Part shown: piece by piece, positions 2,666 through 63,678 of the stretch
How positions within the stretch are numbered: the stretch's first letter is position 1
Layout of the letters: the number at the start of each line of letters is the position of its first letter
Source: Squalus acanthias
Taxonomy: Eukaryota
Assembly: GCA_030390025.1 (NCBI GenBank)
Contig: CM059432.1
Coordinates: forward strand, 28,088,001 to 28,152,000
Length of the DNA: 64,000 bases
Direction: 5' to 3'
Notes under the pieces: generated by a model
What the model was told of the DNA's origin: nothing
Database searches by the model: none
The model's input: only the letters and a program-made list of their open reading frames with translations
Program-made: the position numbers and the translations under genes

Positions 2666-3389
2666 AAATGCATGATAACTTTACGGGATGTTAAAAGCAA
2701 ACAAAAAAAGGGTCATTGCCCAAGAGCTGTCACTTTCATGGGCACAAATATCTCTAAAAATAAATGAAATAGAAGCAGAAGGAATGAGTGATGCAGTGGG
2801 CTTCCACGATACCTTTTCACTTCTTGGACCTGGGTTGAGTCTAACCTGGACAGATAAGAGGAAAAGCTATGAGCTCCCTGCATGAGGCTCTCGGAATGCA
2901 AGGGTCACTTCAATCCCAAAAGGTTCTTGTGCACACACAGCAGCCAGCTACCTCACGCAATCCAAACATGCGGGTAGCAGCTAGACAAAGAAAGATGAGG
3001 TTAAAAATATATACACAGTAAGTACGCAGAAGTAATGTCGAATCACACACTAGGCACGCACAGAACAGTTTGGATCCTAGTACCTTGAGGCCCCATTGGC
3101 CCTGTTCCAGTCACAAATCGGTTACGTTTGATTATGCTGATTCACGAGGGACTTTACTTTCAGGCTTATGAGTTTAATGAGTTTGTGCGGAAACTTGGGC
3201 GTAACTTCACCTCGGCAAAAATGTTGCCTATTGCGTCCTTAGAGGAAACTCCAGGCCAAGCTGTTTAAAATATACTTACCTGAATGTGGAGCCGGGTGGA
3301 GCAGGCGTGCTCATCGTGACCCCACATTAAAAGCATCGCGCCCCCCCACCCCCCCTTCAATTACCGTGGCTACCCCTGCCTCCCGTGGA

Positions 3390-3612
3390 TCCCGACCTCT
3401 GGCCCTCCCCAATCCCGACCTCTGGCCCTTCCCAATCCCGACCTCTGGTCCCCCTGATCCGGACCTCTGGTCCCCCTGATCCGGACCTCTGGTCCCCCTG
3501 ATCCTGACCTCTGGTCCCCCTGATCCTGACCTCTGGTCCCCCTGATCCTGACCTCTGGTCCCCCTGATCCTGACCTCTGGTCCCCCTGATCCTGACCTCT
3601 GGTCCCCCTGAT
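3390..3612. repeat. 22-bp minisatellite (gacctctggtccccctgatcct)n, about 10 copies
   Basis: Directly visible tandem units; explains the repetitive ORFs 3311..3652 and 3357..3791. Confidence 0.95.
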
Positions 3613-4194
3613 CGCTGCTGAAGTGCAATTGCCACAATGTGCTTACTCTCATCAGGGAGCCGCCCAGTTTTCAATGAACGATATGCAGGTACAACGCATA
3701 TCAGAACCGCCATTGATGTTGTGAAATGCAGCCCAAATGTGTGAATGAGGCAAGTTCCCCCCAGTACCAGGAGCCCCCGCATATTACACACCTGTTTCTG
3801 CTCAAAGTGGTTCCATGATACGAGGAGACCACAACACGAAAGCTAATTAATAATAAAACTCATTTTGATACAGAACTAGCAAAATTCAATCACGCTTTTC
3901 TAGCATTTACCAAAATGAGTGTACATGTTCACCGCAGGTTCAGCTACATCACCTCCTCCGCCTTCTTTCCATGCCTCGTTTCTATATCTTATCAAAGTTA
4001 TGAAAGCTCTTATTGTGTTATTTCTGCTGCCCCCGATGCTGCTCGCCTTGACTCTGATCAGCGAATGCTTAAAGGGGCATCATCTTCACAACAAAATACA
4101 TTTGGAAAACCTTTTTCTTTGTTGGCAAATACGTAGTTCAAAAATATATATTGCCCCGTGATATGTGATCACGTTATTTGTGTGTGGCAGCACT

Positions 4195-4602
4195 GGCAAC
4201 ACGGTGGCATAGTGGTTAGCACTGGTGCCTCACAGCGCCAGGGACCCGGGTTCGAATCTGACCTCGGGTGACTGTCTGTGTGGAGTTTGCACATTCTCCC
4301 CGTGTCTGCGTGGGTTTCCTCCCACAGTCCAAAAATGTGCAGGTTAGGTTGATTTGGCTATGATAAATTGACCCTTAGTGTTAGGGGGGGATTAAATATG
4401 TGGGGTTATGGGGATAGGATGGGATATGTTAGGGGGAATTAAATACGTGGGGTTACGGGGGTAGGGTGGGATATGTGTACTGTGAGGATTAAAGCAGGGA
4501 CAGGGTACTGGATTTGGATGATCAGCCATGATCGTATTGAATGGTGGAGCAGGCTCGACGGGCCGAATGGCCTACTCCTGCTCCTAGATTCTATGTTTCT
4601 AT
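4195..4602 (+). mobile_element. Full-length young V-SINE (HE1-like) with CR1-derived 3' tail
   Basis: A box (ggtggcatagtgg) and B box (gggttcgaatc), V-domain tgtggagtttgcacattctccccgtgtctgcgtgggtttcctcc, CR1 tail gggccgaatggcctactcctgctcct..ttctatg. Near-identical to the copies at 11191 and 63393. Confidence 0.88.
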
Positions 4603-4839: not shown

Positions 4840-5790
4840 CTGCTGCCCAAGCACTTCGACAATACATCCCAACCCCACAACATCTACCACCGAGAAGAAC
4901 AAAGGCAGCAAAATCCTTAGAATACCATCACTCCCATGCTTCCTTCTACATCACGCACCATCCTGACTTGGATACATATTTCTATTCCGTGGCCATCACT
5001 GGGTCAAAATCTTGGAATTCCCTCACACCATCATGGAATTACCATCACCACAAGGACTGCAGCAGTTCAAGAAATAGACCAACTGCCACCTTCCCAGGGC
5101 AACTAAGGATAGGCAATAAAAGTGGTCTTGCCAGCAAAGCACACAGTGGTGAAGGTGCTCCCACATGTTGTTAGGTAGGGAGTTCCAGGGGTTTTATGAT
5201 CTGTGACTTGGAGGGGAACCTGGAGGTGGTGGTGTTCCCATGTACCTGTTGCCCTTGTCCTTCTAGGTGATGGAGGCCGTGGGTTTGGGAAGTGCTGCTG
5301 AAGAAGCCTTGGTGACTTACAAGAGTGCATCCTGTAGATAGTACACACTGCAGCCATGGTATGCCAGTGGTGGAAGGAATGGGTGTTTAAGCTGGTGGAT
5401 GGGGTGCCGATCAAGCGGACTGCTTCATCCTGGATAATGTTGAGCATTGAGTGTAGCTTTACCCATGCAGGCAAGTAGAGAGTGTTCCATCACACACCTG
5501 ACTTGTGCCTTGTAAGTGGGTAGAGGCATTGAGGAGTCAGGAGGTGAGCCATTCGATGCAGAATAACCAGCCTGCTCTAGTAGACACGGCATTTATGAGG
5601 CAGGCCCTGCTCTGAGTTTCTAGTTATGTTGATGTTGGGAGATTCAGCGATGATAATGCTCTCTCTTGTTGGAGATGGTCATTGCCTAGCAATTATTACT
5701 TGCCATTAATTAGGCCAAATTTGGATTGTGTCCAGGTCTTGCTGCATGCAGGCATGGACTGCTTCATTATCTGAGGAATTGCGATTGAGA
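4840..5790. mobile_element. Two tail-to-tail fragments (+ 4840-5145, - 5146-5790) of an older CR1-group LINE family
   Basis: Both match the + copy at 51720-52255 (gggtcaaaatcctggaactccct; tail gggcaa..gatgggcaataaatgctggcc). The - ORF 5103..5474 is an RT C-terminal remnant. Confidence 0.7.
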
Positions 5791-6021
5791 TCCCTTGAGA
5801 TCTGTCAAAATTGGAGTGGATCCGTGGGGATGTGCCAATATTGGCAGAGAGGCTCTAGGGGTGTGTAAATATTGGCAGAGTCCTAGGGTGTGTCAATATT
5901 GGCAGAGAGTCGCTAGGGGTGTGTCAATATTCATGATGCGGAGATGCCGGTGTTGGACTGGGGTGGACAAAATTGAGAGGTCGCACAACACCAGGTTATA
6001 GTCCAACAGTTTTATTTGAAA

Positions 6022-6064
6022 TCACAAGCTTTCGGAGCTATCGATTTGCTCCTTCCTCAGGTGA
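6022..6064 (-). ncRNA. Minimal hammerhead ribozyme motif (second copy)
   Basis: Exact reverse complement of 6924-6966. Confidence 0.7.
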
Positions 6065-6923
6065 AGTAAATTAGATACAGAATCCCCAAAGCATATATAG
6101 ATAGAAAACAAAGCATGTGTACTTTACAATTGCAGACCAATAAATTAAATCATCCTGACTATCTGCCAAGGTGTGATAAAGTTAATTAAGTCAGCCAGGA
6201 AGGTACCACATCAAAGACATAGCAAGATACAACTGAGACAATGAGGTGTAGTTGCAGGGGTTCTAACGTGTCAAAAGCTGCCGTCTGTATGTAAAACGAA
6301 AAGCTTTAACATTTTTTTACTTTTTTACTGGGAAAATTTTTACTTTTTTACTGGGAATCACATCTGTGAACAAGCTAACGACGACTCGAGTCCGGATCAC
6401 GTCATGTATCGTGACATAAACCCAAGATCCCGATTGAGACCGTCTTCATGAGTGCGGACTTGGCTATCAGTTTCTGCTCGATGATTTTGCGTTGTCGTGT
6501 GTTTCTAAGGTTGCCTTGGAGAACGCTTACCCGCAGATCCGAGGCTGAATGTCCTTGACTGCTGAAGTGTTCCCCGACTGGGAGGTAACAATCCGGACTC
6601 GAGTCGTCGTTAGCTTGTTCACAGATGTGATTCCCAGTAAAAAAGTAAAAATTTTCCCAGTAAAAAAGTAAAAAAATGTTAAAGCTTTTCGTTTTACATA
6701 CAGACGGCAGCTTTTGACACGTTAGAACCCCTGCAACTACACCTCATTGTCTCAGTTGTATCTTGCTATGTCTTTGATGTGGTACCTTCCTGGCTGACTT
6801 AATTAACTTTATCACACCTTGGCAGATAGTCAGGATGATTTAATTTATTGGTCTGCAATTGTAAAGTACACATGCTTTGTTTTCTATCTATATATGCTTT
6901 GGGGATTCTGTATCTAATTTACT

Positions 6924-6966
6924 TCACCTGAGGAAGGAGCAAATCGATAGCTCCGAAAGCTTGTGA
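6924..6966 (+). ncRNA. Minimal hammerhead ribozyme motif in Penelope pseudo-LTR
   Basis: ucac-CUGAGGA-a-GGAGC(loop)GCUCC-GAA-AGCU-U-guga: conserved core, stem II, palindromic AGCU stem III and a 4-bp stem I, as described for PLE minimal hammerheads. Confidence 0.7.
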
Positions 6967-7779
6967 TTTCAAATAAAACTGTTGGACTATAACCTGGTGT
7001 TGTGCGACCTCTCAATTGTGTCAATATTGGCAGAGTCCTAGGGTGTGTCAATATTGGCAGAGAGGCTCTAGGGGTGTGTAAATATTGGCAGAGTCCTAGG
7101 GTGTGTAAATATTGGCAGAGTCCTAGGGTGTGTCAATATTGGCAGAGAGGCTCTAGGGGTGTGTAAATATTGGCAGAGTCCTAGGGTGTGTAAATATTGG
7201 CAGAGTCCTAGGGTGCGTCAATATTGGCAGAGAGTCGCTAGGGGTGTGTCAATATTGGCAGAGAGTCCCTGGGGCTGCATCAATATTGACAGAGAGTCCT
7301 TCGAGGTGTGTAAATATTGGCAGAATCCCTAAGGGTTTGTCAATATTGGCAAAGAGTCCCTAAGGGTGTGTAAATGTTGTCTGAGGTGATTGGGAGTGTG
7401 CTTGCTTGGGGTTTCTGGGAGTGTATCAGTATTGACAGGGAATCTCGCACCCAGAAAGTTTTGAATCCATGGCAGATAGACCGAAGCATTTCATAAGGTA
7501 GAAAAAATACGTTGCAGCTAATAAACAGCTTATTTAATTACGCTGTTGTTTGTATTAAGCATTCTGCTGAGTGTGCCAAGGTAGGCAGTTTTCTCTTATC
7601 AGCCTTTAGCTGCAGAAGACGTCTAAACATTTCCTGCTGATTCGGAGGAACAGTCACATTATTTACACAACAGTGATAGTATCTCCAGTCGAGTGATATA
7701 ATCAAAACTTCAGAATATCCCACCACCCCAGCCCACGTACTCATGAGGTAACAGTTAGCGATAAAAATTTTCAATGTTT

Positions 7780-11190: not shown

Positions 11191-11471
11191 AAACATAGAA
11201 ACATAGAATCTAGGAGCAGGAGTAGGCCATTCGGCCCGTCGAGCCTGCTCCACCATTCAATACGATCATGGCTGATCATCCAAATCCAGTACCCTGTCCC
11301 TGCTTTAATCCCCACAGTACACATATCCCACCCTACCCCCGTAACCCCACGTATTTAATTCCCCCTAACATATCCCATCCTATCCCCATAACCCCACATA
11401 TTTAATCCCCCCTAACACTAAGGGTCAATTTATCATAGCCAAATCAACCTAACCCGCACATTTTTGGACTG
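11191..11471 (-). mobile_element. 5'-truncated young V-SINE nested in CR1
   Basis: Near-identical reverse complement of 4325-4602. Confidence 0.9.
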
Positions 11472-17455: not shown

Positions 17456-18969
17456 AATGGCCATTTTGGCAAGGATCTGGAGCAAAGCCAGCACTCATGA
17501 CACCATACCTGGGTTTAAAAAAAAATATTCTCGGGATGTGGGCAAGGCTGGAAAGGCTGGCATTTATTGGCCATCCTTAGCTGTCCTTGAGAAGGTGATA
17601 GTCAGCCTTTTTCTTGCTGTAGTTCAAGAAGAAGGCTCACCACAAGGGTAACTAAGGAGGGTCAATAAATGCCTGCCTTGCAAGCAAGGCCCACATCCTG
17701 AGAATTAATTAAAAAATATCCCAGCAAGGAGGGGAAGAAAGGAAAAGCTGGAGAGTAAAAAACAAGGAACGTTGATTCTGGTGATTGGGTTTAGCTCACT
17801 GTGGCCATATTGCTGCTGTGCAGATTTCTGTCTCATGCTGATTTCCACATTTGTGTTTATTCTTTCTCAGTAAAGGCTGCTGAGAGGAACCATTCAGATA
17901 CTGTCTAGTGTGGTGCAATTGTGTAAGCTGAACTGTACCACAAGAGGTGTGGGGAAGGGCTAAAATAACTACATTTAATAATGGGTAGTGTGTAGGTGTA
18001 GTAGGTGGTCCAATCATCTGATTCCCTACAACGCTAATTCCCCATCCCAGCTTTGTTGTTAGTGAGAGACGAGGGGCAAGCTTCCCTATATGCAGGTAAT
18101 GAAAAATTGGTGGTTGATTCACCTTGGTGATCAGCCCTTGACTGGCATCGGAGGGTGAGTCAGTCTATCCAGGCCATTCTGGCACATTCTGCATTGACCA
18201 GATTTGGAGTGGCAATAATGGGTGCCAAGGAAGTTGGTTACCTATCTGCTGATGAAAAGCTATCCTCCTGGTGTGAATTACATTAAAAACGATACCAGGA
18301 GAAACTTCTTGAGTCAGAGAGAGATGCATTTTTGGAATACTCTACCAAGCAAGGGAATAGAAGCAAATGTGAGTATCTAAAGTACAACTGTACCTTATTG
18401 TACATTATGGGAGAGTTAATGTATTAGAGGGATGCGTTTTGATGGGATGATCAGTATCATTCTCATTCCTGACCTTTCTCATTCGTTGAGTGGTATGTGT
18501 CATGTCCAAATCCTGCTTTAATTGTGTCCATTTTGATTTGTATTACGCCTCTGTGAAGTGCCTTGGGACGTTCTTCTATGTTAAAGGCGCGATATAAGTA
18601 CAAGTTGTTGTTGTATAAAAGTTACACCGAAATTACAGCATCATAATGAGAAAAGATACGGGTTAAAAGCCTCCTTCACTCAGAGCAATGCATGTTTGAG
18701 ATCTGCAAAGGGAGGAACAAATTGCAAGAGAAACCTAAACAGCGGATGGCTCAGTGAATAATTGCCCAATGTGGTGTGATATTGTGCCATACAACAACAA
18801 CAACAACTTACATTTATACAGAGAAGGAGAGCCTCAGATCTGTGAAGATCCCAGGTTAAAAATAGGAAAAATCAGCCAGGATCACTGCTCCTGATTACAC
18901 TGACCCCTGCTGGAAAGTGTGAGTGTGACAAAAATGGATTTTATGTCGCTGTTGAACTTTTAACAAGAG

Positions 18970-19375
18970 GAGTGCCGGGCTGCCAGATTGCGGCACGGAC
19001 CCCGCGTTCAAAGACGCAACGGGCCGCGACAAGTAAGTCGGACGATTTTCTTCCCCCGCCCGCCACCTCCCCTTTACTTATTGCCCCGCGAGCCTCCTGC
19101 CACTCCGTTCCCGCTCCCTGAATCGGTCGCTGCCATCGCCCGGCGCAGATTCAGGGGGCACGGCAAATTTTACAGGCAGGGCGAAAACGGGGTGCTGCGC
19201 ACGGTGATGACGCTGTCATCGCCTATGCAGCGGAGCGGGGCGCTACCGGTTACCGCCGCCGCTGAACTCCCGCTGAATTCAGTGGGAGTCGTTAGCGGCG
19301 CCGCACCCGGGCGAAAAGTCGTTTGCGCCCCGTTAGCGCCCTCCGAGAGGCGCAAATGCACCGAATTTCTAGGCC
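18970..19375 (-). mobile_element. GC-rich MITE fragment, same family as 38510-39226
   Basis: Terminal caccgaatttctaggcc; shares aattcagcgggag..gcggcgg..ccggtagcgccccg..gtcatcaccgtgc with the 38510 element. Confidence 0.75.
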
Positions 19376-20689
19376 TTTGACTTAACAAGGAGAACTGGTG
19401 GCTATTTGAAATAGAGGGGAGAATTGCAGCTAGCAATCCTGTCTTCATGATGTCTACAAGTGCACCTACCAGTATAGTTCACTGGGCAGTGATCAGGAGC
19501 AGGAACCTAACCCAGCGACATCAATTGTAGTGAACCCAAGGATCACACCTCCCTAAACCAGCCACATCAATTGTAGTGCACTCCAGTGAGATCAGCTAAC
19601 TGAGTATATATTGGGGAAGGAGGAGAGGTTGAACATTGGAACTTCCTGGTCTGTATGAGTCAGGCAATGCATTTACCCAACAGGCCTTGTAGACGTAATT
19701 GAATATTTCTACATCTATATCCATTCCTCACTGTGCCAACCACAGGGAGCCTGGTGTTACACACGATCCATCACTCTTTCTCATACAAGCTTTTGACGTG
19801 GCTGTCCCGTTTTGCCTGCAGACTGACTGCTATATAAACTTTGGACATGTGGTGCACCGAGCCTATGATGTGGCATTGACTCCAATTATCACCAAGTGAC
19901 ACAATTCCATCCCTGACATTTAACTATATTATTGGACAGGGTGATGCCAGCAAACAGCAACATTTACTCTGCACATGTTAATTAAAAGAGACCAGAAAAA
20001 CCTCCAATACTGGCAGAAAGGGACAGGCAAGACTCTTTATAACAACCTGGTGAACTTTCCCTTCTGAGTAAAACACAGCGGCTGTGGCTTGATTTTCAAT
20101 GTGTATTTAAAGTATATTTTTACACAAATTATTGGCTATTCATGTCTGTATATGATTGCAGCCAGGGAGTGAAGGGGTGGAGCTTCATATGCGGTAGCTA
20201 GTTGCTTCAGACTGGGTGATACAACGTATTAAACATCAAGGACTTGGCAAATGGCTTAGTCGGTAAATACACTTATAGTATTGAGCCATACAGACCAAAA
20301 GGCCCCAAGTTCAACCCCCAGCCTGTGCTGAGGTAACTGAACTCAAGTTGGAGGGGGGGCCTGCTCCTAATGACTAACTAGTGACCTGTACACATATGAG
20401 AGCAGGATAGAGTGTTGTTGTGATGCATAATGTAGAAGAGCTTTTACCATCTTGCCTTATAAATAAAGCATGGTGACTTGATGTTGCCCATGGAACCATA
20501 CGCTAGCAAGAACCAGTGACTTGCGGTTTTATTTTCCTTTTAGAGGTTGAAACATCTGCTTTTTTTATATATATTATTTCCTTCCCTTCTTTTGGTATAC
20601 CTGTAAATGCATCATCAGCAGCTGAGAGGACTTGTAGATGGTCAGCTCCCAGGTCCCGGACAGTACTGCTCTGAAACCAGCTACCACCA

Positions 20690-26779: not shown

Positions 26780-27200
26780 TGTCGTTCGGTGTCACCGTTA
26801 GTGTCGGTGTGATTCGGTATCACCGTTAGTGTTGGTGTGATTCATCACCATTAGTGTTGGTGAGATTCGGTATCACCATTAGTGTTGGTGAGATTCGGTA
26901 TCACCATTAGTGCTGGTGTGACTCGGTATCACCGTTAGTGTTGGTGTGACTCGGTATCACCATTAGTGTTGGTGTGATTCATCACCATTAGTGCTGGTGT
27001 GATTTGGTATCACCATTAGTGCTGGTGTGATTCGGTATTACCATTAGTGCTGGTGTCATTCGGTGTCACCAGTGGTGCTGGTGTCATTCGGTGTCCCCAG
27101 TGGTGGTGGTGTCATTCGGTGTCACCAGTGGTGGTGGTGTCATTCGGTGTCCCCAGTGGTGGTGGTGTAATTCGGTGTCTCCAGTGGTGGTGGTGTTATT
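26780..27200. repeat. 28-bp minisatellite (ttagtgttggtgtgattcggtatcacca)n
   Basis: About 15 tandem units drifting to gtggtggtggtgtcattcggtgtcacca at the 3' side. Confidence 0.92.
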
Positions 27201-27646
27201 GAGTGTCATCATGAGGCAGGTGGACTTTATGCCGCTGTTCCGGCTGCTGCCAGTTTTACAGCGGCCTAATGCTGGGCAGCTGAAGCGTCCACCTGTTTCA
27301 GATGGTAGGTCCCTTTTAATATGTAAATTGTCATGCATGACCAGATAATCTGTTTTAGTGATGTTGTTTGAGGGATAAATCTTGCTCAGGACACCGGGAG
27401 AACTCCCCTGCTCTTATTCAAATGATGCCCTGGGATCTCTGTGTCCATCTGAGAGGACGGAGGTAGCCTCGATTTAATGAGCTACCCACTATTGACCCCT
27501 TAACTTTTCCAGCAGCATCATTCTCATAAGAGAAATAGTATCTTGCAAAGCTTTTTCCACTTGTTCTGGGACCATAGAAATGACAACTGTGGAAACTTTA
27601 GCAACTGTCCAGTGTTGAATAGTGCAGGTGAAAGCGTAGACAGATT

Positions 27647-28535
27647 GGGGGAAAAATTCAGTTGGTTGCACCTCCCGTTAGCACCTTAAGAGGGCGCTAA
27701 TGGGGCGCAAAGCAACTAGTGCCCAGGCGCGGCGATGTTTGCGCTGCTCGCGAAATTAACTAGACATTTTGCGGCGGCGCTAAACACTACCGCCACAATC
27801 TCCTGCGCCGGCAGATCGTGACGTCAGTCGAGTGCGCAACGCCCCGGTAGCGCCCCAGAGCAGATATTGAGTGGCGCCCCCTGCCTTACCGCCTGCCGCT
27901 AGCAACGACAGGTTGAGGGGAGCGTTTTGCAGTCAGGAAGGGACTGGGGAGTGCTATTTAAAGGCGACCGCTTCCTGCCTTTTTTTGTTGGTGACATTTT
28001 TGAACCACGCATTCTGAGAGAACGAGAGAGACTTCTGAAGAGATTCAACGCTGTGTTAAGGAGTTTTGGGTACTGAGCAGCACTTTGCAGGTTCATTTTG
28101 ATTTGCCCTTCCTTTATCAATTTAGAACAGACTGTGGGGGTTGCACTCTGAGCTCTTTCCCTAGTTCTTTCCATTGTTCTTTCCAGCAGATTTGATGTAC
28201 AGGTCTCTCCAGGCCGAGATTCAAGGCTGCAATGAGCAGGATGTGGATGGAAAGCAAGATCAACCCTCCCCTTTAAGAACTGGCCTGCGCCATTGTGTCT
28301 GTGTTCCATTGCTGACTGACACCACATGAGCTTCGCCAGCGCTCTGAGGTAGCGCCTCGCTCCTTGGCCTTTGCGCCTTAAGACAGATGTGTAGCGCCTG
28401 ATTTAGCGCTCCAATCACCTCCAGGGGCGATAAAAGTCAAGTTTGCAGTCGGAGGCGATAATTAGCGCCAGGCGCTAATCTTTGCGCCCGGCCGATAATT
28501 GCGCACCAAACGGGGCGATACTGAATTTTTCCCCC
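27647..28535. mobile_element. MITE with perfect 16-bp TIR and ATT target duplication
   Basis: att|gggggaaaaattcagt ... actgaatttttccccc|att; GC-rich subterminal sequence related to the 38510 family. Confidence 0.85.
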
Positions 28536-37008: not shown

Positions 37009-38509
37009 TGGTGCAAGTCCAGTGGGTGGGACATTGGGTGGGAGGCCGTTCCGCTGGCTCCCTTCCAGCCGCCACCACTTCCTGGAATTTTCCACTGGAC
37101 ATGGCATCGGCCGTTCAACGTATCCCCAGATGTGGACAGGCATAGCGAAATGATAAGAATACGTTATATGGCATATTTCCCATCATTTGCGACAAAGCAA
37201 CACTTGATGGGAGGAGCATTGTGCATCATTAAATTTCCTTTGGGTGCCCTAGAGGCCGCCTGCTAGGCCATGCTGCCGAGACATGTAGCAGTGAGTTCCA
37301 TCCCTCTCCCATGGCAGACTCTCCAACACACACAGGAATCCTGTCAGGAGTCCACCAAAATGACCAAACCAGGCCCGTAGCCTCTAATTATCCTGAGAAG
37401 TCACACTTTAAAAAAAACAGTAAAATTAAAAATGGAACATGGAGGGTGGAATCATTCCCCAAGCCAGGAGTCAATATCTGCAGGAGATGAGAGGAGGAGA
37501 GTGTAGCATGTTTGGGAGAAAAAAGGTGACTTTTGACCAATGGTTACCAAAGCTCTCCACCACTGGAGCTTTGTTCGTGTCATGTCTGGATCTACTGTAG
37601 ACTAATTGATAGAGAATGATTGCTATGATTAGCCAACAGCTCCATTTTCATGGTATCATACGACTACAAGGATGGTAGAAGGCAAACTAAATGAATTTGG
37701 TATTTTTTCGTCTAGTATTTCCTATGTTCCAATGAGAGGGAAGAAAACTAGCTGGGAACAATAATAATATGTTATATTATCACTCAGAGAAGCAATAACA
37801 TGGTTAGTGTGGGGAATGTAGTTCATTCGGTGCAGTATAGATGCTCTTCTGAGCCTGGGGTTAAGGCACGTTGTTGAGAAAGATAACAGGGAGCTTTATG
37901 CTGCACCTAACCAGTGCTTGATAGATGTAGAGGATGTTTTACTTCGTATCTAACCAGTGCTTGATGCAAACACCATGACAAAAAGTGGGAAAGTGTACCA
38001 TTCTCCAGCATTAACCTCCCTCAGTAAATAAATGTAGAAGATTTGAAGCATTGCTTGTGAATATAGCTGACTTGAATCTGATCACTTCCTTGGCACAAAG
38101 TATCTCCAGCTGTTTCCAGTACCGAAACAGCAACATGATCAGCAGTGTAGACTGACCGGGCAATGTGCTCCTTGCTGTGGCAGAGTGTGGGCGGAACTCT
38201 GTTTCATTTGTGTCATCACTTGGTGCAACAACGTTCAATTATCAAATTATTGAATGACCAAAGAAACACTTTTATTCTGTTTCCTTCAATTAGTGATAGA
38301 AACATAGAAAGAAACTTGGATGGATAAGCTTTTCGTTCAGCAACTTTGGAGAAAAGCAAGTCTTCCTTTCCGGTACTGGAGTTTCAGCTAAGGAGCATCC
38401 AGCAGAAGGAGCTCCCGAACCAGCATCATAGAATGTTACAGCACAGAAACAGCCTATTCAGCCCCTCAAATCTAAAACAGCGCTTTTGTCCACTAGGTGT
38501 AGAATCTAA

Positions 38510-39226
38510 GGGGGCGAAATTCAGTTGCTTTGTGCCTCCCGTTAGCGCCACCGGGGGGGGGGGGGCGCTAATGGGGCGAAAAGCGCCTAGTGCCTGGGCG
38601 CGGTGGCGCTAACGCCTCCCGTGAAATTCAGCGGGAGGTTAGCGGCGGTGGTAGCCGGTAGCGCCCCGTGGCGCTGTGCTGCCGGGGATGATGTCATCAC
38701 CGTGCACAGCGCCCCGCTCGCGCCCCGGCCGCAAACTTCGGTTGCGCCCCCTGACCTATCGCCAGACGCTATGTCCGACAGGATCAGGGTGGCGCTTTTG
38801 CAGCTACGGTGGTGCCATTTTTGTTTTGGCCGACTGCTAGCACCTGCCCCTTCCTCTTTTCTCTTCGGGGTGCCGGCCGCGATCACTCCTTGAGTGCCGG
38901 GCTGTTTTCCTGGCACCCCACTCCCCGATGGTCCAGCAGGGCTCCGGTGCGCGCTGTGCTAGTCCCCTCCCCTTTAATCAGGGGAGGGAGGCCTGCAATG
39001 ACGAGACGTTACGTGCCGATGCCCGTGGTGCTGTTGCATGTAGCACCACGAAATTGACTGGTAGCACCCCAAGAGGGAGGGGGAACGCTTCCAGTAGCGC
39101 CCCACCTCCTGCTTGGGGCGCTACCACTGACTTTATGGCGCAGGGGCACTAACTTTTTCGGGGCGCTACTTTTAGCGCCCCTGCGAAGTTAGCGCCCCAA
39201 AGGGGCCGCCACCGAATTTCTTCCCC
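38510..39226. mobile_element. GC-rich MITE (PIF/Harbinger-like)
   Basis: TIR gggggcgaaattcagttg / caccgaatttcttcccc, flanks ctaa / ttag, repeated gcgcccc and ggggcgcta subterminal motifs. Confidence 0.78.
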
Positions 39227-39499
39227 TTAGGCTTTAGCTCGGACACAGTTGGAGTATTGTACATTTTGGAAATGCATTCCTGTCTTCTTCCTTTTTAACA
39301 GCTATCTAATTTTCTTTCAAAATTTCATATGGATTCTGCTTCAATAATAGTTTGTGGCACAGAATTCCATGTTCTAGCCATACTTTGTGCAAAGAATTTT
39401 TTTCTAACTTCTGTAATTCTTTTTCTGATTATCTTAATAATGTGGCCTTCCATGGCTATCTCATTGACGAATAGAAATAATCAGTCACTATCACAAATA

Positions 39500-52255: not shown

Positions 52256-52344
52256 CACATTTTGTTATTTAGCGGTCTTTCATTTGCATAATTTCTTCAC
52301 GTGTAAAGACCAGTAATAAATAATAACTGGGCAGATCTCTCGTG

Positions 52345-52415
52345 AGAAGTCGCACAACACCAGGTTATAGTCCAACAGCTTTATTTGAAATCACAAGCTT
52401 TCGGAGCGCTGCGGT
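52345..52415 (-). mobile_element. 71-bp Penelope pseudo-LTR stub with 10-bp TSD
   Basis: Matches 5976-6038; atctctcgtg duplicated at 52335-52344 and 52416-52425. Confidence 0.85.
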
Positions 52416-53164
52416 ATCTCTCGTGGTATTGCACATGGATAGTCTAGGGTCTGGAACAAGGTCCTGCATCACTCTAGCATAGCGTTTACGACGTCACTAA
52501 CACATAGCAACCAGAGGAAATATTATTGGGGCAAAGAGGAGCTTCACTCTGCATCAAAACCGCGTTGTACCAAACCTCGGAGTGCTTGACACTGACCAAA
52601 ATAGAAAATGTTCTGCTCCTCAGTGCGGACATTTCGTTGGCTCCATAGCCACAAAAAACACTTTTAAAAAGGAACAAATAAGCCCAAAACTAAAAAATAG
52701 AAGAGGACCACTGCATCTTCGACTTCTTGTAATATACCATTTAAATTCTTCTTGCTGCAAACTCACAACAAAAGCACAATGAAAATATACCTAGAGATTA
52801 AGCAAAGGTTCCAATTTTGCTATCTCTTTGAATAGTTTATAAAAATAAGCATGGTTTTGGGGTCTGGCACACAAAGTCTGCAAATGTGTAGTGCTGCTGT
52901 GTTTCTTTTCGAGAACTGGACTAATGGAAACTTTGGCCTGCACTTCAGCCCCAACTTCCCCATTTTGAGGTTCAGTCTGATCCATCTGATAGCACAGTAG
53001 TTACAGCTGGGAAACTGTCTTGAACTTTTTTTTGAAAAATAAGGACCAACATTCTTGCTCTGTTTGGTCTTTTCTTACAGTGGGTTTTAATTTTCTCTGT
53101 CTATTGTTTTTAACTCACTGGTTAATGTATTCATGTTCAACGCACTCTTTTAACCTGTTTAACA

Positions 53165-56976: not shown

Positions 56977-57076
56977 TGGACAGCAACGATGTGCTGGTTA
57001 CAATTTATGACTACCCGCCACCAACGATAAGCCAACCGATCTTCAGGATGGGGGAGAAACTACGCGTTGTAGCAGA
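56977..57076 (+). CDS. SLA: Src-like adaptor (SLAP), second coding exon, start of SH3 domain
   Basis: Acceptor ttccctcttttacAG, donor GA|gtaagt, 100 nt. Translates (V)DSNDVLVTIYDYPPPTISQPIFRMGEKLRVVA(E/D), matching human SLA GLDSDFLAVLSDYPSPDISPPIFRRGEKLRVISD as recalled. Confidence 0.93.
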
Positions 57077-62645: not shown

Positions 62646-63392
62646 TAGTATTGAATAACTTGCCAAATACTTTACTAATATTCCTTAATAAAGTGGATGT
62701 TCCATTCATATCGATCTCTCTTTTTCTTCCAGAGAAGGTGATTGGTGGAGAGTGAGGTCCATTATTGCTGGACATGAGAGCTACATCCCACGTGCCTGTG
62801 CCGCTCGAGTTTACCATGGGTAGGTTTATTAGATACAGTTCACCTTTTCTTGTTTGTTTGTCTTGCATTTTCCTCCCCCAACAACAACTTGAATTTATAT
62901 AGCGCCTTTAATGTAGTAAAACATCCCAAGGCGCTTTGTTAGCAAACAAAAATTTGACATCACGACACATAAGGAGATATTAGGACAGGTAACCAAAACC
63001 TTGGTCAAAGGGGTAGGTTTTAAGGAGCATCTTAAAGGAGGAGAGAGAGGTAAAGAGGCGGAGCGACTGAGGAAGGGAAATCAAGAGCTTGGGTCCAAGG
63101 CAGCGGAAGGCACGGCCGCCAATGGAGGAGCGATCAAAATCAGGGATGCGCAAGAGGCCCAAATTGGAGGAGTGCTGAGATCTCAGAGGGTTGTAGGGCT
63201 GGAGGAGGTTACAAAGATATGGAGGGGCTCCACATTCAATCAAAGAACTGGCCTCAGCACTCCTGGGGCTAAGGAGGGGGAAAATTAATCAGTTTCTTCT
63301 CTTGAGTACTATCAAGTACCCCATAGTGGAAGGTGCATTTATGGGGTCACTTAGTGAGGACAAATTCAAGCTCAGCTGGGATGCACCTCCAT

Positions 63393-63678
63393 GTCCAAAA
63401 ATGTGCGGGTTAGGTTGATTTGGCTATGATAAATTGACCCTTAGTGTTAGGGGGGGATTAAATATGTGGGGTTATGGGGATAGGATGGGATATGTTAGGG
63501 GAAATTAAATACATGGGGTTACGGGGGTAGGGTGGGATATGTGTACTGTGGGGATTAAAGCAGGGACAGGGTATTGGATTTGGATGATCAGCCATGATCG
63601 TATTGAATGGTGGAGCAGGCTCGACGGGCCGAATGGCCTACTCCTGCTCCTAGATTCTATGTTTCTATGTTTCTATGT
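63393..63678 (+). mobile_element. 5'-truncated young V-SINE inside an AmnSINE2-like element
   Basis: Near-identical to 4327-4602; atgtc repeated at both junctions. Confidence 0.9.

What the first reader, a model, noticed from the sequence alone, without database searches (positions are those of the whole stretch)
5932..7017. Fresh Penelope insertion forming a 427-bp inverted repeat with back-to-back hammerhead ribozymes
Seen: arms 5971-6397 and 6591-7017 are equal-length reverse complements, with no mismatch found by eye, and both carry the same internal ~23-bp duplication (ttttacttttttactgggaa x2). The inverted arm starts exactly at the last base of the GIY-YIG ORF stop codon. A 39-bp tail extends only the downstream pLTR. 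Established: Penelope-like elements can carry inverted pLTRs and minimal hammerheads. Inference: both arms came from one very recent event. Any transcript through the locus, on either strand, would carry one hammerhead and a long perfect dsRNA stem (ADAR/Dicer substrate, cruciform risk). This matters if SLA (+) and TG (-) both read through.
Basis: partly seen in the sequence, partly recalled or inferred. Interest (0 to 1): 0.75.

Follow-up and report, generated by a model that had tools for sequence, protein, structure and literature searches.

The report
Ordinary inverted Penelope retrotransposon insertion, shark
This is a real but ordinary dead copy of a Penelope-like jumping gene in a shark-type genome, laid down in the already described "truncated copy plus mirror-image end plus short tail" pattern, and its two small ribozyme motifs are probably silent.

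Summary
Observation confirmed: arms 5971-6397 and 6591-7017 are exact reverse complements (0 of 427 mismatches), each with a minimal hammerhead, and a 39-bp tail lies on one side. The insert is a 5'-truncated, frameshifted Penelope-like element, 93% identical to a shark RT/GIY-YIG protein with a Neptune/Nematis-type linker. It sits in a minisatellite with an 11-12-bp target duplication, about 50 kb upstream of SLA SH3 exons. The architecture is published (inverted pLTR plus tail; dual hammerheads on opposite strands), and this scan noted it before in other shark DNA. Corrections: the centre junction is a 4-nt microhomology, so "exactly at the stop codon" is only the outer limit of an ambiguous breakpoint. 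The 23-bp duplication is a family trait. Arm identity bounds the age only to about 5 million generations. In any transcript the hammerhead is buried in the 427-bp stem and has no same-strand partner. Read-through by SLA or TG was not shown, and no TG exon was found. Most likely route: both target strands primed reverse transcription, at the element's two start sites, and the two cDNAs joined by microhomology. cDNA fold-back is the main rival. The centre junction was not seen directly in reads.

The parts
5827..5931 (.). Left part of the 27/31-bp minisatellite target array
5920..5931 (+). Left copy of the 12-bp target-site duplication (11 bp if 7017 is given to the element); ends in ATT
   Evidence: removing one copy restores a regular run of 27- and 31-bp units
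5932..5970 (-). 39-nt PLE tail at the element's 3' end, left side only; ends on an ATG (its role as start codon not tested)
   Evidence: 30-40 bp tail described
5971..6397 (-). pLTR / 3' region of the main (663-nt) copy = left arm
6022..6064 (-). Minimal type I hammerhead motif, predicted cut after 6026
6314..6357 (.). 23-bp tandem duplication, a family trait (mirrored at 6631-6674)
   Evidence: table 8 record 14
6383..6396 (.). Short palindromes (10 bp at 6383-6392, 6 bp at 6391-6396) next to the inner arm edge
6394..6397 (+). 4-nt partner of the junction microhomology; the only such 4-mer in 5932-6590
6397..6594 (-). C-terminal remnant of the GIY-YIG endonuclease ORF, 5'-truncated, one-base frameshift near 6457, family-frame stop at 6399-6397
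6591..6594 (+). 4-nt microhomology at the inversion junction (both ORF and arm)
   Evidence: table 7: loose ends behind 6594 in 29 (X1), 28 (X5) and 3 (X18) records continue into the ORF
6591..7017 (+). Inverted, tail-less pLTR copy = right arm
6924..6966 (+). Minimal type I hammerhead motif, predicted cut after 6962
7017..7028 (+). Right copy of the target-site duplication; its bottom-strand end matches element 5966-5971 at 5 of 6 bases
7017..7379 (.). Right part of the minisatellite array
52345..52415 (-). Second, solo and tail-less PLE end of a related subfamily, flanked by a 10-bp duplication (52335-52344 = 52416-52425); internal comparison for the tail-less start site
56979..57074 (+). 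SLA (Src-like adaptor) SH3 exon, context only
   Evidence: best hit 2cud SRC-like-adapter, E 4.9e-07
62692..62820 (+). ORF holding the next SLA SH3 exon, context only
   Evidence: best hit 2cud, E 6.1e-06

Best explanation
A single integration event of an endonuclease-positive, Neptune/Nematis-type Penelope-like element (PLE) built the whole 1.09-kb insert. It is now an inert, truncated, frameshifted copy. Likeliest route, a two-primer form of target-primed reverse transcription: (1) the GIY-YIG endonuclease makes staggered nicks 11-12 nt apart in the AT-rich minisatellite unit (inferred from the duplication). (2) The top-strand 3' end, which ends in ATT, primes cDNA 1 at the outer start site, tail included; it runs 663 nt and stops at 6594 (extent shown, priming inferred). 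(3) The bottom-strand 3' end, 5 of 6 complementary to the RNA 39 nt further in, primes cDNA 2 at the inner, tail-less start site; it runs about 425 nt on the same RNA or one from the same source locus (inferred). (4) The two cDNA 3' ends anneal over 4 nt, each primes on the other, and host repair seals the ends (microhomology shown, step inferred). The hammerheads are passengers of the pLTR and probably do not cleave here. That it is a PLE insert with an inverted pLTR formed at integration is about 90% likely (this route plus the first rival); the confidence given is for this route.
For: Protein identity and domain layout. TSD that restores array phase. 4-nt junction overlap, with chance about 1.7% for a random join. 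The tail-less end is a real priming site: the solo copy at 52345 starts within about 4 nt of it, has its own 10-bp TSD and no inversion. Family joints and loose ends also fall at 5974-5976 (tables 5 and 7). In vitro, an anole PLE protein nicks and extends both target strands, prefers ATT, and starts reverse transcription at two sites that bound the tail (PMC11167929, parts 1-2 of 4 read). The same architecture with a 9-10 bp TSD is described in PMC3846280 (passages).
Against: The inferred bottom-strand nick is not at an ATT. Rare variants shared by both arms (6253, 6310-6312) are more simply explained by one arm being copied from the other. The in vitro data are from a Poseidon-clade element, not this one. 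One locus cannot separate the routes. The junction was not seen in reads (partial listing).
Confidence: 0.55

Rival explanations
1. Same element and same single event, but by cDNA fold-back. First-strand cDNA stalls at 6594, its 3' end pairs with the 4-mer at 6394-6397 on itself (193-nt loop), and it primes a copy of its own pLTR. The new strand is cut or stops at the tail boundary and joins the right target end.
For: Both arms share variants rare in the family. The partner 4-mer is unique in the cDNA and lies beside two palindromes. PMC3846280 infers self-priming on an antisense template from head-to-head repeats with junction palindromes (section 11 read). The right arm ends in ATT on the top strand, the preferred cut motif.
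Against: It needs an extra step to stop 39 nt short, almost exactly where a solo copy primes. Four base pairs closing a 193-nt loop is a weak primer (inference).
Confidence: 0.33
2. An older insertion, or a later rearrangement, whose arms are kept identical by arm-to-arm gene conversion.
For: The copy differs from the bulk of family contigs at several sites and has a frameshift in the spacer. Arm identity alone allows about 5 million generations. Conversion in palindromes is general knowledge (recalled; PMC6790999 seen only as a search listing).
Against: Clean TSD and intact array phase. Many near-identical records in the same organism label: 6,399 of 23,034 laid X1 records are at least 99% alike, though these include flanking repeats. 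CpG is not depleted (o/e 0.66 in the arm, 0.99 in the spacer, 0.37 in the window).
Confidence: 0.06
3. Assembly or library artefact (fold-back chimera, or arms homogenised by polishing).
For: Perfect identity is what such artefacts give. PMC8557442 warns that these structures trouble assemblies. No listed record bridges the junction (24 pieces shown, 40,272 not shown).
Against: A chimera would not be expected to end at the family's second start site and resume the flank with a 12-bp duplication in array phase.
Confidence: 0.04
4. Functional cis-element: SLA or TG read-through is cut by a hammerhead, or the stem feeds ADAR or Dicer and alters host gene output.
For: The 427-bp stem is the predicted fold, -892 kcal/mol for 5900-7060. 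SLA lies on the + strand in this window. Human SLA lies in a 64-kb TG intron (PMC4539169 passage).
Against: The hammerhead is sequestered (+75 kcal/mol). A tested monomeric min-HHR was inactive, and the anole PLE hammerhead needed the PLE protein. Six other inverted pairs of at least 100 bp and 80% identity lie within 10 kb of each other in this window, so intronic dsRNA is commonplace here. There is no sign of selection. Passive editing of the stem, if transcribed, is plausible but is not a function.
Confidence: 0.02

Closest known systems
EN+ Penelope-like element insertion unit with inverted pLTR and tail (PMC3846280, passages and section 11 read; PMC8557442, passages read)
   Same: Head-to-head 5'-truncated copy plus adjacent inverted pLTR, 30-40 bp tail at one end, TSD of about 10 bp, palindromes near the junction, broken ORF.
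   Different: Only size and host: a short 1.09-kb shark-type copy with 427-bp arms, a 193-nt spacer and an 11-12 bp TSD in a 27/31-bp minisatellite.
Minimal hammerheads (min-HHR) of metazoan PLE pLTRs (PMC4209133, parts 1-2 of 4 read)
   Same: [quoted passage not shown] Dual motifs on opposite strands about 100-700 bp apart are reported there for Schistosoma.
   Different: Helix II is 5 bp (7-8 bp in Schistosoma), the cores are 868 bp apart, and position 17 is U (a poorer cleavage base by recalled knowledge, not tested).
Poseidon element of Anolis (PAc) in vitro system (PMC11167929, parts 1-2 of 4 read)
   Same: Two 3' end positions bounding a tail, ATT at the target, hammerhead near the tail.
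   Different: PAc is Penelope/Poseidon clade; relatives of this element carry the CX2-5CxxC linker that this clade lacks.
LINE-1 twin priming
   Same: Works like it: both target strands prime, microhomology joint, TSD, 5' inversion.
   Different: L1 inversions invert a segment without duplicating it; here the 3' region is present twice.

Membership tests
EN+ Penelope-like elements | Single ORF with PLE-type RT and C-terminal GIY-YIG endonuclease with CCHH motif | tested here: met
   The window keeps only the last ~65 codons; 39 of 42 residues are identical to P0001. P0001 has RVT_1 (E 5.2e-09) and a VVY..C...C..YIG core followed by the conserved R, H, E and N. Met through the relative. The remnant alone has no Pfam hit.
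EN+ Penelope-like elements | pLTR, direct or inverted, adjacent to a 5'-truncated copy | tested here: met
EN+ Penelope-like elements | 30-40 bp tail at one end | tested here: met
   39 nt; tail-less solo copy in the same window
EN+ Penelope-like elements | Target-site duplication, AT-rich or simple-repeat target | tested here: met
   11-12 bp in a minisatellite; a deletion of part of a unit cannot be formally excluded in a tandem array
Neptune clade | CX2-5CxxC motif in the RT-EN linker (shared with Nematis) | tested here: met
   C-X4-C-xx-C in P0001, P0005, P0006 and P0007; not retained in the window copy
Neptune clade | RT phylogeny groups with Neptune rather than Nematis | not tested
   No reference PLE set was fetched; reported only as Neptune/Nematis-type
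Minimal type I hammerhead | Core CUGAnGA...GAAA...UH with helices I and II | tested here: met
   (2 hits; 0 in 100 random 64-kb controls); helices I and II form in the isolated fold, with weak z-scores of -0.07 to -1.33. Related copies vary at N7 and loop II but keep the core (loose end at 6038; solo copy).
Minimal type I hammerhead | Meets the Rfam hammerhead gathering score | tested here: not met
   0 matches in the window; the motif has almost no helix III
Minimal type I hammerhead | Self-cleavage, as a dimer or with protein help | not testable with these tools
   Predicted to be blocked in context
Non-LTR retrozyme | Non-coding head-to-tail tandem units with same-strand hammerheads | tested here: not met
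   The units are inverted, not tandem, and include ORF sequence; the definition comes from the abstract listing and passages of 10.64898/2026.07.22.740005

The most novel reading that the evidence does not exclude
The locus is a readable footprint of an undescribed PLE integration chemistry. An RT-endonuclease dimer primes from both target strands at the two tail-bounding start sites and copies the same RNA end twice, and the two cDNAs are joined by microhomology. That would explain, in one model, the inverted pLTR, the one-sided tail and the TSD. A very high-copy shark family would let it be tested on thousands of young copies. My two literature searches for a stated route (listings seen, and only PMC3846280 read) showed only the antisense self-priming proposal. 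Most subscription papers are not in that library.
Probability: 0.3. Interest if true: 0.5.

Novelty: new member of a known kind. Interest (0 to 1): 0.15.

Why it matters
As a single locus it matters little: a dead retrotransposon end in a repeat-rich interval, of a shape already drawn in the literature. Its value is as a clean specimen. How PLEs make inverted pLTRs is still described as undefined (PMC8557442), and this copy shows all the junction marks together: a TSD, two start sites, a 5-of-6 match at the right end and a 4-nt overlap in the centre. A genome-wide tally of such copies could decide between two-primer synthesis and cDNA fold-back. If the insert is polymorphic and transcribed, it would also be a convenient natural reporter for dsRNA editing in a shark.

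Tried and rejected
No whole genome is held for this window, so a master copy, copy number and other inverted copies could not be examined. Rfam at gathering threshold gave 0 hits. A conserved 22-nt motif of the element end found 0 matches in metagenome contigs and 0 in viral contigs. A protein-alignment scan of metagenomes gave only 2 distant loci (31-33% identity) out of 282 candidate stretches; neither has a long inverted repeat, so they are uninformative. Sequencing runs: no RNA holder listed. Reads laid on 5400-6640 from 4 of the 24 listed runs did not list a record across the centre junction, nor clear evidence of an empty allele. The joint 5931->5860 could come from the right-hand array, which was not part of the laid stretch, so I rejected it as evidence. 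Summed contig depth on the element is 4-5 orders of magnitude above the flank bins 5820-5903 in X1 and X5, but the tool states this is no copy number. TG exons: 283 minus-strand ORFs of at least 36 aa, outside within-window repeats, were scanned against Pfam with no cholinesterase-like or thyroglobulin hit. Shorter or repeat-overlapping ORFs were not scanned, so TG is neither found nor excluded. A search for papers with Penelope + shark + retrotransposon + Neptune gave 0. A hot spot at the stop codon was considered: landing there is unlikely by chance (about 1%, rough estimate) and palindromes adjoin it, but depth shows no step at 6397 and the overlap blurs the breakpoint; left open. Notes of this scan on Tx1 elements that target PLE tails do not bear on this locus. 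No supplementary files were opened; those of PMC4209133 and PMC11167929 may bear on cleavage-site identity and start-site positions.

Full report
Observation. The inverted repeat is real. Arms 5971-6397 and 6591-7017 are exact reverse complements, with 0 of 427 mismatches and a 193-nt spacer. They stretch to 432 nt with one mismatch. Each arm holds a 23-nt tandem. A hammerhead descriptor of my own found two hits in the 64-kb window, with cores at 6928 (+) and 6060 (-), and none in 100 random sequences of the same dinucleotide make-up. Rfam found nothing at its curated thresholds. A 39-nt stretch, 5932-5970, extends the left arm only.

What it is. On the minus strand, the spacer encodes the end of a GIY-YIG endonuclease. 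39 of 42 residues match P0001, an uncharacterised shark protein. [quoted passage not shown] PMC8557442 (passages) assigns that linker to the Neptune and Nematis clades of Penelope-like elements; I ran no phylogeny. The last 20 residues lie in another frame, so this copy is frameshifted near 6457. Contigs with the extra base exist in X1 (10 contigs, 34% of depth), X5 (14 contigs, 12%) and X18 (1 contig, all of its depth). Whether the deletion is private or shared by a subfamily is open. The insert is therefore a 663-nt 5'-truncated copy (tail, pLTR, ORF stub) joined head-to-head to a 427-nt tail-less copy.

Junctions. The insert lies in a 27/31-bp minisatellite. Twelve bases (5920-5931 and 7017-7028) are duplicated, and removing one copy gives a regular run of 27- and 31-bp units. 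In a tandem array a partial-unit deletion cannot be formally excluded. At the centre, family contigs match the window to 6594 and then go on into the ORF in 29 (X1), 28 (X5) and 3 (X18) records (19 loose-end rows shown, 914 not). So 6591-6594 is shared by the ORF and the arm. This 4-nt overlap has about a 1.7% chance for a random join, and its partner 4-mer occurs once in 5932-6590. The breakpoint may lie anywhere in those 4 nt, so the arm starting on the last base of the stop codon is only the maximal reading. Two palindromes adjoin that edge, and a hot spot there is not excluded. At the right end, the target's bottom strand matches element positions 5966-5971 at 5 of 6 bases. A second PLE end at 52345-52415 is tail-less, has no inversion, carries its own 10-bp duplication and starts within about 4 nt of the right arm's outer end. 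Both 3' end types are thus seen in one window.

One event, but how recent? Both arms carry variants uncommon in the family. At 6253 another base holds 92% (X1) and 99.9% (X5) of summed depth; at 6310, 76% and 68%. The arms therefore share one template. The 23-bp duplication is no evidence for this, since an X18 contig spans it with one other letter and a 2-base gap (record 14). Zero differences in 427 allows up to 0.7% divergence, or about 5.0 million generations at 7e-10 per base per generation (rate from PMC10587355, passages, a different species). Youth is plausible: CpG is undepleted, the TSD is clean, and 6,399 of 23,034 laid X1 records are at least 99% alike, although these include flanking repeats. 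It is not shown. No empty allele could be identified, and no listed record bridges the centre junction. Only 15 of 39 joints and 24 of 40,296 pieces were displayed, and the laid stretch stopped at 6640, so the artefact question is not closed by reads.

Mechanism. In vitro, an anole PLE protein nicks and extends both target strands, prefers ATT, and starts reverse transcription at two sites that bound the tail (PMC11167929, parts 1-2 of 4). Read against that, the simplest account is two primers. The top strand, ending in ATT, primes at the outer site. The bottom strand primes at the inner site. The two cDNAs meet by the 4-nt overlap (0.55). The rival is fold-back of the first cDNA on itself, followed by a cut or stop at the tail boundary (0.33). 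It explains the shared rare variants more simply and resembles the antisense self-priming proposed in PMC3846280 (section 11). Against the two-primer route, the inferred bottom-strand nick is not at an ATT. Later conversion between the arms (0.06) and artefact (0.04) are minor. The extents, the TSD and the overlaps are shown; all enzymatic steps are inferred.

Hammerheads and dsRNA. The motif meets the marks listed for metazoan PLE minimal hammerheads: extra nucleotide after position 9, G10.1-C11.1, palindromic 15.2-16.2 (PMC4209133, parts 1-2 of 4). Related copies change N7 and loop II but keep the core. That paper already reports pairs on opposite strands about 100-700 bp apart (here 868), and found a tested monomer inactive. 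The anole motif cut only with the PLE protein. A transcript of either strand holds one motif and its exact antisense. The predicted fold is one 427-bp stem, and forcing the hammerhead costs about 75 kcal/mol. Isolated folding z-scores are weak. SLA SH3 exons lie on the + strand at 56979 and about 62.7 kb, some 50 kb away; SLA's 5' end was not located. Human SLA lies in a TG intron (PMC4539169 passage), but 283 scanned minus-strand ORFs gave no TG-type domain. Read-through is unshown. Six other inverted pairs of at least 100 bp and 80% identity lie within 10 kb of each other in this window. This one is the closest and most perfect.

Comparison and verdict. A truncated copy with an adjacent inverted pLTR, a one-sided 30-40 bp tail and a TSD of about 10 bp is called typical in PMC8557442 and PMC3846280. 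Unchecked notes of this scan describe the same pattern in other shark DNA. The finding is a correctly spotted new copy of a known kind; interest 0.15. The one open thread is mechanistic and needs a genome-wide tally of junctions.

Noticed in passing
window 52335-52425: A 71-nt solo PLE end with a 10-bp target duplication, tail-less, 5'-truncated inside hammerhead helix II, with a different loop II from the main copy.
   Followed up: yes
window 4325-4602, 11195-11471, 63393-63672: Three 98-99% identical copies of a ~278-bp repeat with an internal 47-bp tandem; the first two form an inverted pair that brackets the PLE insert 6.6 kb apart. They suggest another young retroposon family.
   Followed up: no
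window 52975-53100 (-): Weak Pfam CARD hit (E 0.0023, 18.4 bits, below the cut-off of 23.9) in a 42-aa ORF; may be chance.
   Followed up: no
window 18751-19500, 27501-28250, 38251-39250: CpG-rich stretches (o/e 0.7-1.1) that could be repeats or an SLA promoter candidate.
   Followed up: no
window 3388-3613 and 26785-27200: Two further minisatellites, periods 22 and 28.
   Followed up: no
P0004, P0008: Shark gene models named XRCC5 and septin 5a isoforms contain this PLE endonuclease end: either exonised PLE fragments or annotation errors.
   Followed up: no
window 5986-6474: Contigs from a run with a different organism label (X18) are about 99% identical to the arm, so the family is near-identical across labels or that run holds host-derived DNA.
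   Followed up: no
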